Below are positions 54,146-54,308 of a stretch of DNA of 54,453 nt, one piece after another (position 1 is the stretch's first letter; the number at the start of each line of letters is the position of its first letter). Both the position numbers and the translations under genes were made by a program. This DNA comes from a virus. Lineage: Duplodnaviria; Caudoviricetes. The stretch is taken from the IMG/VR virus record IMGVR_UViG_3300042923_000201, positions 1-54,453 of that record. One strand, given 5' to 3'. The notes beneath the pieces are model-generated. The model was not told the DNA's origin. It did not search any database and saw only the letters and a list, made by a program, of their open reading frames with translations.

Positions 54146-54308
54146 TGTGGATAACTCTGTGGATAATGTGGATAACCTTATCAACACCTGTGGATAACAT
54201 TGTGGATAAAGTTATCAACAGAAGTTATCAACATGTGGACAAGTTATCAACACTGTGGATAAAGTTATTAACAAAGTTATTAACACCTGTGGATTAAACT
54301 GTGGACAA
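54146..54308. promoter_or_regulatory. Dense DnaA-box cluster
   Basis: Six perfect TGTGGATAA, four TTATCAACA, two TGTGGACAA, one TGTGGATTA and two TTATTAACA in 163 bp. Confidence 0.9.

What the first reader, a model, noticed from the sequence alone, without database searches (positions are those of the whole stretch)
54146..54308. Fifteen DnaA-box-like 9-mers in 163 bp in a phage that encodes its own replisome: possible DnaA sponge or host-type origin
Seen: perfect TGTGGATAA (reverse complement of TTATCCACA) at 54146, 54158, 54167, 54189, 54201, 54254; one-mismatch TTATCAACA at 54178, 54212, 54225, 54244, TGTGGACAA at 54234, 54300, TGTGGATTA at 54288; two-mismatch TTATTAACA at 54265, 54277. 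They are 0-4 bp apart in both orientations. Two more one-mismatch boxes lie at 102 and 130, adjacent if the genome circularises. No dnaA, dnaN or rpmH is present. Known: TTATCCACA is the bacterial DnaA box, and non-origin clusters (E. coli datA, B. subtilis DnaA-box clusters) titrate DnaA. Inference: the phage has its own initiator, loader, helicase, primase, polymerase and an iteron element, so the array may be a protein-free decoy that sequesters host DnaA as phage copy number rises, halting chromosome initiation or altering DnaA-regulated genes. Alternatively it is a DnaA-dependent origin for a plasmid-like state. I see no clear DnaA-trio run nearby, which weakly favours titration.
Basis: partly seen in the sequence, partly recalled or inferred. 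Interest (0 to 1): 0.88.

Follow-up and report, generated by a model that had tools for sequence, protein, structure and literature searches.

The report
DnaA-box array at phage chromosome end
A phage of Clostridia carries, in the non-coding DNA at one end of its genome, a tightly packed row of binding sites for the host's replication starter protein DnaA; it resembles arrays that sit at the genome ends of several well-known phages, whose job nobody has tested.

Summary
Window 54146-54308 holds 13 DnaA boxes with at most one mismatch, plus 2 with two mismatches, roughly one per helical turn. The core unit, TTATCAACA-cc-TGTGGATAA-cat-TGTGGATAA, is the three-box unit found a median 26 nt upstream of dnaA in Clostridia genomes, so these look like real host DnaA sites.

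It is not a host-type origin. There is no DnaA-trio unwinding module, dnaA or dnaN, and homology to host DNA stops at the 32-40 nt box unit.

The array lies 25 kb from the phage's own initiator-loader-helicase genes, in about 1.5 kb of non-coding DNA between the last rightward gene and terS, 145 nt from the contig end.

Such arrays are common: at least 120 IMG/VR contigs have one. In six cultured phages (T5, three T7-like, two Arthrobacter), 42 of 44 perfect boxes lie in terminal repeats or within 91 nt of an end.

My best reading, at 0.35, is a cis-acting DnaA loading pad at the chromosome end. A DnaA sponge (0.2) and an auxiliary origin (0.2) remain open. All functional claims are inferred.

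The parts
54146..54308 (.). Array of 15 DnaA boxes: 6 perfect, 7 with one mismatch and 2 with two. Nine lie on the minus strand and six on the plus strand. Mean spacing is 11.0 bp.
54178..54209 (+). Core unit TTATCAACA-cc-TGTGGATAA-cat-TGTGGATAA. It has the same pattern as the three-box unit a median 26 nt upstream of dnaA in Clostridia genomes.
54277..54308 (+). Degenerate second copy of the 32-nt unit, 84% identical to 54178-54209. A third copy, 78% identical, lies at 54135-54166. The array therefore looks like a multiplied unit with extra boxes.
   Evidence: family D2
32..138 (.). Three one-mismatch boxes at the left end of the record: 32 (+), 102 (-) and 130 (-).
54057..54104 (+). CA-rich stretch of largely alternating purine and pyrimidine, 52% G+C in a genome of about 33%. 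It lies 40-90 nt left of the array. A similar CA/C-rich block lies in the same non-coding region as, several hundred nt from, one of the two box clusters of Lactococcus phage AM4.
54325..54453 (.). AT-rich flank (74-80% A+T) from 17 nt after the last box to the end of the record. It contains no DnaA-trio run.
53692..53803 (+). G-run repeats: GGGGAGGGGT perfect at 53692 and 53718, with degenerate copies at 53750 and 53792. A third perfect copy lies at 75-84. They may belong to the same end module, because G-run pairs accompany DnaA-box arrays in other phages.
53632..53655 (+). Terminator-like hairpin followed by a T run. It closes the long rightward gene block and marks the start of the non-coding end region.
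692..1153 (+). Small terminase subunit gene, the first gene after the non-coding end region. The large subunit gene is at 7135-8850.

Best explanation
The 163-bp stretch is a phased binding array for the host replication initiator DnaA. It appears to be made by multiplying the three-box unit that Clostridia keep just upstream of their own dnaA gene. It is neither captured host DNA nor a host-type origin.

It sits in the long non-coding stretch at the right end of the phage chromosome. Cultured phages (T5, three T7-like phages, two Arthrobacter phages) keep nearly all of their DnaA boxes in the equivalent place.

**Proposed mechanism.** Host DnaA loads side by side, one box per helical turn, and coats about 160 bp close to the DNA end. 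This protein-coated block acts in cis on a step tied to the end. If the contig ends are the true ends and packaging runs away from terS, this is the last DNA packaged and the first injected. The block would then hold, shield or gate the entering end, as was proposed for the T5 injection stop region. Alternatively it would slow the packaging motor before the terminal cut. Soaking up DnaA would be a side effect that grows with phage copy number.

**Shown:**
- the boxes, their phasing and their mixed orientation;
- the match to the host dnaA-proximal unit;
- the absence of an unwinding module and of nearby replication genes;
- the terminal position of such arrays in cultured phages.

**Inferred:**
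- that DnaA binds;
- that the record's ends are the physical ends;
- which end-linked step is affected.
For: **1. The sites are real host-type sites.**
Nearly all of the 80 record titles shown name Clostridia.
- 70 of the 120 loci have a same-strand ORF starting a median 26 nt downstream, and 66 of those 70 are DnaA.
- The phage has no DnaA C-terminal domain.

**2. It is not an unwinding origin.**
- A trio run downstream of a box is present in 46 of 63 host dnaA-dnaN spacers.
- The window has only CTTCTTCTTTTT at 54127-54138, and in the wrong polarity.
- Box orientation is mixed, with runs of at most 3 in one direction.
- The array is 25 kb from the phage's initiator-loader-helicase genes.

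**3. Position in the window.**
- It lies in about 1.5 kb of non-coding DNA between a terminator and terS, 145 nt from the record's end.
- Three more boxes lie within 138 nt of the other end.
- In the one run that holds the stretch, the contig stops 45 nt short of the record's end with no loose end. That fits a physical end, or a loss of coverage.

**4. Cultured phages.**
- T5: 6 of 6 perfect boxes lie in the terminal repeats, and 4 boxes with at most one mismatch lie in the annotated injection stop signal.
- Shigella phage A7: 8 of 8 lie in both terminal repeats.
- phiEap-1: 10 of 11. Klebsiella phage ZK1: 12 of 13.
- Arthrobacter phages Seahorse and Tiff81: 3 of 3 each, within 91 nt of the right end.
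- T5-like phages use the same variant boxes, TTATCAACA and TTATTAACA (passages of bioRxiv 10.1101/866236).

**5. IMG/VR survey.**
- At least 120 viral contigs carry three or more closely spaced perfect boxes. 62 have 5 or more boxes per 200 bp and 25 have 7 or more.
- Spacing peaks at 11 and 12 bp.
- Among 115 ORFs of at least 230 aa within 4 kb of the 62 arrays, large-terminase families are the commonest match (14 + 4 + 4 + 2), followed by portal families (7 + 5 + 3).
Against: - The physical ends of this phage are not known. The record has no terminal repeat. Arrays also break assemblies: 21 of 120 lie within 300 nt of a contig end against 7.3 expected, and the assembly graph branches inside this very array.
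- In this phage's own relatives, DnaA boxes sit at iteron origins and not at ends.
- Some arrays are internal in near-complete records (G017, G019). Some lie beside replication genes (L053, L010, L113).
- The six cultured phages were picked from a BLAST list partly because their hits were near record ends. Other hits were not examined: nasanit at 4070, NJ2 at 15765 and AM4, whose record is circular.
- The terminase enrichment has no matched control, and many of those contigs are related to each other.
- No experiment has tested the role of the T5 boxes (passage of PMC10644984).
- In 12 of the 24 G-run instances found beside arrays, the run lies 1-16 nt after the boxes on the same strand; it is not adjacent here.
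Confidence: 0.35

Rival explanations
1. DnaA sponge. As phage DNA amplifies, 13-15 sites per genome copy soak up host DnaA. This blocks new rounds of chromosome initiation and shifts DnaA-controlled genes, including dnaA itself.
For: - The multiplied unit is the host's dnaA-proximal operator unit, not the unwinding half of the origin.
- The density is about six times that of the host's cluster: 13 boxes in 163 bp, against mostly 4 in about 330 bp.
- Mixed box orientation argues against an ordered initiation filament.
- There is no unwinding module and there are no nearby replication genes.
- Other phage arrays reach 23 perfect boxes in about 490 bp (G012), far more than plasmid origins need.
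- From recall only: multicopy dnaA-upstream box clusters are incompatible with growth in B. subtilis, and datA titrates DnaA in E. coli.
Against: - Nothing here measures titration.
- A sink could lie anywhere, yet in cultured phages the arrays are tied to the termini.
- Stopping only new initiations late in a lytic cycle seems a small gain (inference).
- Four full-text searches found no paper describing a phage DnaA sponge.
Confidence: 0.2
2. Auxiliary or alternative replication origin. Host DnaA bound at the array recruits the phage's HTH_36/DnaD_N-like organiser, loader and helicase, or the host's helicase, to the AT-rich flank at 54325-54453.
For: - Three of five complete relatives carry 3-4 boxes at 12-nt spacing directly beside iterons. 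In G002 and G003 these accompany a Rep3 initiator and an ALP_N actin. In G004 they lie upstream of HTH_36/DnaD_N-like genes, a DnaC-like loader and a DnaB helicase.
- Some IMG/VR arrays lie beside primase-helicase, DnaD-like or polymerase genes.
- An AT-rich flank starts 17 nt after the last box.
- From recall: every experimentally proven role of DnaA boxes on plasmids and on P1 is in replication.
Against: - There are no trios, no iterons beside the array and no Rep3 gene.
- Relatives G001 and G005 have the same HTH_36-loader-helicase module as the window and no box cluster. That module therefore does not need boxes.
- The array is 25 kb from the module.
- Box orientation is mixed.
- 13-15 boxes is well above the 3-4 seen at the relatives' origins.
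Confidence: 0.2
3. Host-state sensor. DnaA occupancy of the array controls a nearby phage promoter, so that the phage programme follows the host's replication or growth status. This would parallel the CtrA-site clusters in terminal repeats and gap regions of Alphaproteobacteria phages.
For: - The unit is a transcriptional operator in its host setting, lying between the dnaA upstream region and the dnaA start codon.
- There is a precedent: host cell-cycle regulator sites cluster in phage terminal repeats or gap regions and were shown to regulate (passages of PMC9437464).
- Weak promoter-like sites lie at 54236-54265 and 54339-54366.
Against: - The number of promoter-like matches is no higher than in shuffles: 7 against 6.6 +/- 2.9.
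- No gene follows within the record.
- The CtrA study found no positional bias of DnaA sites in the phages it examined.
Confidence: 0.12
4. Artefact. The last roughly 280 nt of the record, from box 4 onward, belong to another genome and were joined to the phage through a shared 30-nt run of boxes.
For: In the one run that holds the stretch, the contig graph branches at 54177. One 261-nt piece (depth 6.4) carries 54148-54408. A second 101-nt piece (depth 4.4) shares only 54148-54177 and then runs on unlike the window. That other sequence is absent from the window and from all fetched loci.
Against: - The two branch depths sum to about the depth of the shared 2.7-kb phage piece (6.4 + 4.4 against 10.3). 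This fits two phage variants better than a foreign genome.
- No second incoming piece was reported.
- Arrays of this density flanked by phage genes on both sides exist in other records (G017-G020).
- Host clusters are much sparser.
- Boxes 1-3 are in any case contiguous with phage DNA.
Confidence: 0.03

Closest known systems
DnaA-box clusters in the injection stop signal region of T5-like phages (terminal repeat, untranslated)
   Same: - Both are host DnaA boxes in a long, repeat-rich untranslated region of a lytic phage that has its own replication genes.
- Both use the same variant boxes, TTATCAACA and TTATTAACA.
- Neighbouring boxes are about 12 nt apart.
- In T5, all perfect boxes of the genome are confined to the terminal repeats.
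- The function is untested.

   Different: - T5 has 4 boxes with at most one mismatch, in two pairs, within the annotated region, plus 2 perfect boxes 3.3 kb away. Here there are 13 in 163 bp.
- The T5 boxes sit in defined inverted repeats inside a 10-kb terminal repeat. Here no terminal repeat was found and the physical ends are unknown.
- The hosts differ: Enterobacteria against Clostridia.
The dnaA-proximal DnaA-box cluster of Firmicute chromosomes (the oriC part upstream of dnaA, autoregulatory)
   Same: The three-box pattern and the head-to-head arrangement are identical to those in Clostridia. The consensus for low-G+C Firmicutes is TTATCCACA (passages of PMC5749712).
   Different: - The host has mostly 4 boxes in about 330 bp, next to dnaA. 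The phage has 13 in 163 bp with no dnaA.
- There is no flanking homology beyond the boxes.
Iteron origins with DnaA boxes of plasmids and phage-plasmids (recalled: P1 oriR, RK2, pSC101; seen here in relatives G002, G003 and G004)
   Same: Both are DnaA boxes on a phage genome of the same lineage, with 12-nt spacing of neighbouring boxes.
   Different: The relatives have 3-4 boxes directly beside five iterons and an initiator gene. The window has no iterons beside the array and no Rep3 gene, and its array is far from the replication genes.
Non-origin DnaA-titrating loci (recalled: E. coli datA, B. subtilis DnaA-box clusters)
   Same: Both are clusters of strong boxes with no unwinding element.
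   Different: Those loci are chromosomal and far sparser. No titration was measured here.
Clusters of host cell-cycle regulator sites in phage end regions (CtrA sites in terminal repeats or gap regions of Alphaproteobacteria phages; recalled: Spo0A boxes near the ends of phi29)
   Same: Both are binding sites for a host master regulator, concentrated in non-coding end regions of lytic phages (passages of PMC9437464).
   Different: The regulator is different. That study found no positional bias of DnaA sites in its phages. No regulated promoter was identified here.

Membership tests
Host-type chromosomal origin (Firmicute oriC with its unwinding module) | Cluster of DnaA boxes | tested here: met
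   13 boxes with at most one mismatch in 163 bp
Host-type chromosomal origin (Firmicute oriC with its unwinding module) | Box pair followed on the same strand by a run of DnaA-trios and then AT-rich DNA | tested here: not met
   The regex (YTW) x4 or more, within 40 nt downstream of a plus-oriented box, is met in 46 of 63 clostridial dnaA-dnaN spacers. In the window the only run, at 54127-54138, has the wrong polarity.
Host-type chromosomal origin (Firmicute oriC with its unwinding module) | Flanked by dnaA and dnaN | tested here: not met
   No Bac_DnaA_C match and no DNA_pol3_beta match in the record. rpmH was not tested.
Host-type chromosomal origin (Firmicute oriC with its unwinding module) | Supports DnaA-dependent autonomous replication | not testable with these tools
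   Needs a replication assay
Iteron origin with DnaA boxes (plasmid or phage-plasmid type) | Initiator (Rep) gene next to the origin | tested here: not met
   No Rep3_N match in the record. The nearest ORFs have no family match. Relatives G002 and G003 do have Rep3.
Iteron origin with DnaA boxes (plasmid or phage-plasmid type) | Several direct 17-22 nt iterons beside the boxes | tested here: not met
   The repeat search of 53600-54453 finds only the boxes themselves, plus 12-nt G-run repeats at least 340 nt away. Relatives have five iterons touching the boxes.
Non-origin DnaA-titrating locus (datA type) | Cluster of strong boxes away from any unwinding element | tested here: met
Non-origin DnaA-titrating locus (datA type) | Binds DnaA in the cell and lowers initiation when amplified | not testable with these tools
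   Needs ChIP and ori/ter measurement
Terminal non-coding DnaA-box cluster of lytic phages (T5 injection stop region type) | Consensus boxes plus the variants TTATCAACA and TTATTAACA in a long, repeat-rich untranslated region | tested here: met
Terminal non-coding DnaA-box cluster of lytic phages (T5 injection stop region type) | Lies inside a terminal repeat or close to a physical chromosome end | tested here: inconclusive
   The array is 145 nt from the record's end, and the contig in run X1 stops without a loose end. However, no terminal repeat was found, and arrays also break assemblies.
Terminal non-coding DnaA-box cluster of lytic phages (T5 injection stop region type) | Boxes in pairs 3 bp apart, placed in the IRC/IRD inverted repeats | tested here: not met
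   Here there is one continuous row with gaps of 0-4 bp and no such inverted-repeat frame.
Terminal non-coding DnaA-box cluster of lytic phages (T5 injection stop region type) | Two-step DNA injection that stops at the region | not testable with these tools
   Needs an infection experiment

The most novel reading that the evidence does not exclude
Dense, helically phased DnaA-box arrays, often followed within 1-16 nt by a pair of G-runs, form a widespread and so far unrecognised class of phage chromosome-end elements. They are found in Clostridia, Lactococcus and Arthrobacter phages, in T7-like and T5-like phages, and in hundreds of uncultured phages. Under this reading they exploit the universally conserved host initiator as a telomere-like cap or as a checkpoint for DNA entry or packaging. 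This window would be an extreme member, built from its host's own dnaA operator.
Probability: 0.3. Interest if true: 0.85.

Novelty: new variant of a known kind. Interest (0 to 1): 0.64.

Why it matters
DnaA is the one replication protein shared by almost all bacteria. If phages from many lineages place rows of its binding sites at their chromosome ends, DnaA would be a general host factor for an end-linked step of infection: DNA entry, end protection, early timing or packaging. Alternatively it would be a general target of takeover by titration.

The only described case, the T5 boxes reported in 1987, has never been tested. This window offers a compact 163-bp element with a clear host counterpart, the dnaA operator unit. 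Binding, deletion and multicopy experiments on it are therefore straightforward.

There is also a practical point. These arrays break metagenomic assemblies and can mimic host oriC in viral contigs.

Tried and rejected
**Looking for close relatives**
- A search for close relatives of terS and of the 367-aa gene at 51365-52468 found none in viral or metagenome contigs.
- An exact 28-nt flank-plus-box pattern found nothing in metagenome contigs.
- blastn of 53600-54453 against cultured phages at E <= 1e-5 found nothing.
- The lineage-specific history of the array could therefore not be traced.

**Relatives by terminase**
- None of the 13 TerL relatives (49-68% identity) has more than 2 boxes per 200 bp in the fetched loci.
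- The nearest isolate, Clostridium phage FA70, has no cluster in the 14.3 kb of its two end regions that were scanned, 1-4000 and 46000-56275.

**Single-strand initiation hairpins**
- I considered that the inverted boxes might form single-strand initiation hairpins.
- The array folded as single-stranded DNA gives z = -0.89, and 37 of 200 shuffles fold at least as well. I dropped the idea.

**Binding of the phage HTH_36 protein to DnaA domain I**
- One complex-prediction job gave no answer, with scores of 0.00 and 0.01. This is evidence neither for nor against.

**Discarded BLAST hits**
- 192 Staphylococcus phage hits to the array are 22-26 nt matches to the TTATTAACA part and fall under annotated genes wherever the record is annotated. 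I discarded them.

**Arrays near contig ends**
- 21 of 120 arrays lie within 300 nt of a contig end, against 7.3 expected. I first read this as a sign of physical ends, then set it aside. Repeats break assemblies, and the graph branches inside this array.

**Read data**
- Only one run (X1) holds the stretch. It may be the sample the window was assembled from, and it is kept as contigs.
- It therefore gives no read-level ends and no independent support.
- The part 54409-54453 has no cover there. I draw no conclusion from that beyond what the report says.

**Literature**
- Searches for a phage DnaA sponge or for DnaA boxes in phage terminal repeats returned only the T5 preprint, the BF23 paper and the CtrA paper. 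A search for a paper on FA70 returned nothing.
- Subscription journals are not covered. Supplementary files were not opened and may hold site lists, for example Figure S3 of PMC9437464.

**Tool problems**
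Full report
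**What is there**

The window is a complete or nearly complete IMG/VR virus record of 54,453 bp. It is classed linear, with a CheckV completeness of 99%.

- six perfect TTATCCACA, all on the minus strand;
- seven with one mismatch: four TTATCAACA on the plus strand, two TTGTCCACA and one TAATCCACA on the minus strand;
- two TTATTAACA with two mismatches.

Start-to-start spacings run from 9 to 13 nt, with a mean of 11.0. That is one box per helical turn with 0-4 nt between boxes.

Chance does not explain this.
- The densest 200-bp stretch holds 13 boxes with at most one mismatch. In 100 first-order Markov simulations the maximum was 3.
- The window as a whole has 41 such hits against 24.15 +/- 4.51 in shuffles.
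- Only two perfect boxes lie outside the array.
- All four TTATCAACA copies in the window lie inside it.
- Three more one-mismatch boxes lie at 32, 102 and 130, at the other end of the record.

**The phage**

The large terminase is 69% identical to that of Clostridium phages vB_CtyS-FA70 and FA67, and 46% identical to those of Paenibacillus larvae phages.

The genome encodes:
- an anaerobic ribonucleotide reductase;
- an HTH_36 initiator-like protein at 28833-29525;
- a DnaC-like loader;
- a DnaB-type helicase;
- a Toprim primase;
- a family-A polymerase.

It has no tyrosine integrase, no Rep3 initiator, no DnaA C-terminal domain and no DnaN.

The array lies in about 1.5 kb of non-coding DNA. 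That stretch begins at a terminator-like hairpin at 53632-53655, runs off the right end of the record, and resumes at the left end up to terS at 692. The array is 25 kb from the replication genes.

**The boxes are the host's own kind**

I scanned one genome per prokaryote species for the pattern TTATCAACA-NN-TGTGGATAA-N1-4-TGTGGATAA. This is the pattern of window 54178-54209.
Nearly all of the 80 record titles shown name Clostridia, Clostridium or Eubacteriales.
- In 70 of the 120 loci, a same-strand ORF of at least 150 aa starts within 400 nt downstream, at a median of 26 nt. Many of the other 50 loci are cut off by the locus end.
- 66 of those 70 ORFs are DnaA.

The phage's core unit is therefore the three-box unit that Clostridia keep just upstream of dnaA, including the variant box TTATCAACA. 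This is strong indirect evidence that the sites bind host DnaA, and it places the host among the Clostridia.

The array looks like that unit multiplied, with extra boxes. Copies lie at 54135-54166, 54178-54209 and 54277-54308, at 78-84% identity.

It is not a captured piece of host DNA.
- Similarity to the 120 host loci is limited to 31-63 nt around the boxes.
- The host cluster is much sparser, mostly 4 boxes in about 330 bp and at most 7.

**Not a host-type origin**

The same host loci gave a positive control for the unwinding half of a Firmicute origin. In the dnaA-dnaN spacer, two boxes in the TTATCCACA orientation are followed on the same strand by a run such as CTACTACTACTA, and then by AT-rich DNA.
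- A simple pattern for this, four or more Y-T-W triplets within 40 nt downstream of a plus-oriented box, is met in 46 of 63 host spacers.
- In the phage's whole non-coding end region, the only such run is CTTCTTCTTTTT at 54127-54138. It lies on the wrong side and strand of the boxes.
- Among 56 viral arrays, at most 2 have such a run on any side or strand.

Box orientation in the window is mixed (- - - + - - + + - + - + + - -), so no more than three neighbours point the same way. An AT-rich flank of 74-80% A+T does follow the array. This is modest for a genome that is 66% A+T overall.

**Relatives**

The nearest isolate, FA70, has no cluster in the scanned 14.3 kb of its two end regions. It does share a conserved non-coding element of about 110 nt with window 296-400. 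None of 13 IMG/VR relatives has a cluster within the fetched loci.

I scanned five complete relatives.
- **G002 and G003.** Three one-mismatch boxes at 12-nt spacing touch five 22-nt iterons. Beside them are a Rep3 initiator gene and an actin-like partition gene, which is a phage-plasmid-type replicon.
- **G004.** A TTATTAACA box and three perfect boxes lie directly after five iterons. They are upstream of two small HTH_36/DnaD_N-like genes, a DnaC-like loader and a DnaB helicase.
- **G001 and G005.** These have the same HTH_36-loader-helicase module as the window and no box cluster.

In this lineage, small box clusters go with accessory initiators and iterons. The core replication module does without them. 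The window has neither iterons nor an accessory initiator near its array. Its regions at 1.2-7.1 kb and 50.3-54.4 kb have no counterpart in the five relatives.

**Arrays of this kind are common in phages**

A scan of IMG/VR for three perfect direct boxes with gaps of 0-12 nt hit the limit of 120 contigs.
- 62 have 5 or more boxes with at most one mismatch per 200 bp, and 25 have 7 or more. The densest match the window at 13.
- One record, G012, has 23 perfect boxes in about 490 bp.
- Neighbour spacing peaks sharply at 11 nt (182 cases) and 12 nt (141 cases), with a smaller peak at 21 nt (50 cases). The search pattern itself limited gaps to 0-12 nt.
- Two contigs, L053 and L113, repeat the window's pattern TTATCAACA-cc-TGTGGATAA-ctc-TGTGGATAA.

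These are not host origins swept into viral bins.
- Among the 106 nearest flanking ORFs, no DnaA or DnaN family appears in the 25 commonest of 38 families. The matches are phage genes.
- Among 115 ORFs of at least 230 aa within 4 kb of the 62 arrays, the commonest families are large terminases (Terminase_6N 14, Terminase_3 4, TerL_ATPase 4, T7-type 2). Portal families follow (7, 5, 3), then replication proteins (AAA_25 7, DnaB_C 3, Toprim_2 3, Prim-Pol 2, ERF 3).
- Spot checks show arrays upstream of terminase operons (L027, L022), after a primase-helicase gene (L053), beside a DnaD-like loader (L010) and beside a sigma factor gene (L090).

There is no matched control for the terminase count, and many of these contigs are related to each other.

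**Cultured phages place the boxes at the chromosome ends**

The known precedent is T5. A preprint comparing 25 T5-like phages reports eight boxes in pairs in the untranslated injection stop region of the terminal repeat. The commonest variants are TTATCAACA and TTATTAACA. The preprint proposes, without experiment, that membrane-bound DnaA stops injection there (passages of bioRxiv 10.1101/866236). A 2023 paper on BF23 says experiments on the role of these boxes are lacking (one passage of PMC10644984).

I checked T5 myself.
- Four boxes with at most one mismatch lie in two pairs at 12-nt spacing inside the annotated injection stop signal.
- All 6 perfect boxes of the 121,750-bp genome lie in the two terminal repeats. 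The last is 701 nt from the right end.

A blastn of the array against cultured phages then pointed to others.
- Shigella phage A7 (Berlinvirus): 8 of 8 perfect boxes in the first 135 and last 155 nt, which are the two terminal repeats.
- Enterobacter phage phiEap-1: 10 of 11 in the two end repeats.
- Klebsiella phage ZK1: 12 of 13 in the two end repeats.
- Arthrobacter phages Seahorse and Tiff81: 3 of 3 each, within 91 nt of the right end, just after an HNH endonuclease gene.

Together, 42 of 44 perfect boxes in these six genomes are terminal.

There is a caveat. I chose these six from the hit list partly because their hits lay near record ends. Other hits were not examined, or have circular records: Escherichia phage nasanit, Enterobacter phage NJ2, Lactococcus phages of the 949 group, Microviridae and Butyrivibrio phages. 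Lactococcus phage AM4 has two clusters in long non-coding DNA.

**A second motif travels with the arrays**

A pair of G-runs, or its complement, lies within 120 nt of the array edge in 23 of 62 IMG/VR arrays. The pair is defined as four or more G, 0-3 nt, then four or more G. The same holds for only 13 of 1,240 control positions in the same loci.

The commonest layout accounts for 12 of 24 instances. The boxes read TGTGGATAA, then come 1-16 nt, then GGGG(N)GGGG on the same strand. Arthrobacter phage Seahorse shows the same order about 45 nt from its right end.

In the window, GGGGAGGGGT occurs perfectly only three times, all in the non-coding end region, at 75, 53692 and 53718. None is within 120 nt of the array. 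I do not know what this motif does.

**Is the array really part of the phage, and are the record's ends real?**

One public run, a soil metagenome that may be the source sample, holds the stretch as contigs. Laid on 52000-54453:
- a 2,729-nt contig at depth 10.3 runs from phage genes through box 3, up to 54177;
- a 261-nt contig at depth 6.4 covers 54148-54408;
- a 101-nt contig at depth 4.4 shares 54148-54177 and then continues with unrelated sequence, which is found neither in the window nor in any fetched locus.

The two branch depths add up to the trunk depth. This fits two phage variants that differ after box 3 better than it fits a foreign join. It cannot be settled from contigs.

The 261-nt contig stops 45 nt short of the record's end, and no loose end is reported. 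That is what thinning coverage at a physical DNA end would give, but also what a chance gap would give.

Arrays lie near contig ends more often than expected, 21 of 120 within 300 nt against 7.3. I attribute this mainly to assembly breaks. Whether the array is truly 145 nt from a physical end therefore remains open.

**Weighing the explanations**

Every reading starts from host DnaA binding the array. That is inferred, but well grounded.

- **Host-type origin.** This can be set aside.
- **Plasmid-type origin.** It fits the relatives but not this locus.
- **Sponge.** This remains possible. The multiplied unit is the regulatory, non-unwinding part of the host origin region. The density is extreme and the orientation is mixed. 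But nothing measured here speaks to titration. A sink would have no reason to sit at chromosome ends. The benefit to a lytic phage is doubtful.
- **Cis-acting end element.** The tie between arrays and termini in cultured phages, the frequent terminase and portal neighbours, and this array's place just upstream of terS at the record's end favour a role in cis at the chromosome end.

From recall, by analogy with lambda and SPP1, the end far from terS is packaged last and injected first. A DnaA-coated block there could do one of three things:
- hold or shield the entering end;
- couple the start of infection to the host's DnaA status, as CtrA sites do in Alphaproteobacteria phages (passages of PMC9437464) and, from recall, Spo0A boxes do in phi29;
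- slow the packaging motor before the terminal cut.

I put this family of end-linked readings at 0.35, the sponge at 0.2, an auxiliary origin at 0.2, a pure transcriptional sensor at 0.12 and an artefact at 0.03. The rest is unassigned.

**Novelty**

DnaA boxes in phage non-coding DNA are known for T5, reported in 1987 according to the preprint read. From recall, they are also known for plasmid-type origins such as P1.

What I did not find in print (searches; subscription journals not covered; supplements not opened):
- dense phased arrays as a widespread phage feature;
- their confinement to the terminal repeats of T7-like phages and to the right end of Arthrobacter phages;
- the copy of the host dnaA operator unit seen here;
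- the accompanying G-run pair.

I therefore file the window's element as a new variant of a known kind. Its interest lies mainly in the general pattern it exposes and in how easily it can be tested.

Noticed in passing
IMG/VR loci L004-L123 (e.g. L027, L048, L069, L079, L088); Arthrobacter phage Seahorse L277:1891-1982; window 75-84, 53692-53727: A pair of G-runs, or its complement, lies within 120 nt of 23 of 62 DnaA-box arrays, against 13 of 1,240 control positions. The commonest layout is directly after the boxes on the same strand. Its function is unknown. In the window the motif GGGGAGGGGT is confined to the non-coding end region but is not adjacent to the array.
   Followed up: partly
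Records G002 (L146:10963-12069, L144:1762-2673; boxes at G002 52275-52307) and G003: Two relatives (TerL 63-67% identical) carry a plasmid-type replicon: a Rep3 initiator, five 22-nt iterons, three DnaA boxes and an actin-like (ALP_N) partition gene. They look like phage-plasmids. The G003 contig breaks inside the iterons.
   Followed up: partly
L137:5940-6125 (record G004 49939-50124): Five iterons (TATTCGATTATCGAG) are followed by TTATTAACA and three perfect DnaA boxes. These lie just upstream of two small HTH_36/DnaD_N-like genes, a DnaC-like loader and a DnaB helicase.
   Followed up: partly
window 54148-54177: In run X1 the contig graph branches after box 3, with depths of 6.4 and 4.4 against 10.3 for the shared trunk. 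A second variant of the phage may carry only three boxes followed by different sequence.
   Followed up: partly
Cultured phages NC_048180 (A7), NC_028772 (phiEap-1), OK625527 (ZK1): Three T7-like phages from different genera keep 8 of 8, 10 of 11 and 12 of 13 of their perfect DnaA boxes inside both direct terminal repeats, all in one orientation. My searches found no paper on this.
   Followed up: partly
window 296-400 and FA70 record 54960-55070 (L003:8961-9071): A non-coding element of about 110 nt is conserved between the window and Clostridium phage FA70, upstream of the packaging genes. Shared blocks include ACGGTGGAA and ACTTTTAGGGTA. It may be a packaging site or a small RNA.
   Followed up: no
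window 28599-28777 and 1164-1351: Palindromes of the form TGTACCA-N5-TGGTACA cluster just downstream of a TTGACA-type promoter, upstream of the initiator-like gene. A second cluster of five half-sites lies right after terS. Record G004 has the motif upstream of its homologue. This is probably the operator of a phage regulator.
   Followed up: partly
window 26993-27829 (minus strand): There are five tRNA genes (Lys, Thr, Asp, Arg, Ser) between the lysis genes and the replication module.
   Followed up: no
window 5675-6298 (minus strand); L090:11199-12230: The phage encodes a sigma factor in a leftward block of genes (1231-6967) inserted between terS and terL. An unrelated IMG/VR contig has its 23-box array about 630 nt upstream of a sigma factor gene.
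   Followed up: no
Lactococcus phage AM4, L278:1500-2450: The box cluster of this 949-group phage lies in about 1.5 kb of non-coding DNA. That stretch also has a G-rich repeat block followed by a CA/C-rich block, much like window 53692-53803 and 54057-54104.
   Followed up: no
One search hit list (Microviridae and gokushovirus records): Several small single-stranded DNA phages of 4.5-5.7 kb have DnaA-box rows matching 55-65 nt of the array. In those phages a role in complementary-strand synthesis seems more likely.
   Followed up: no
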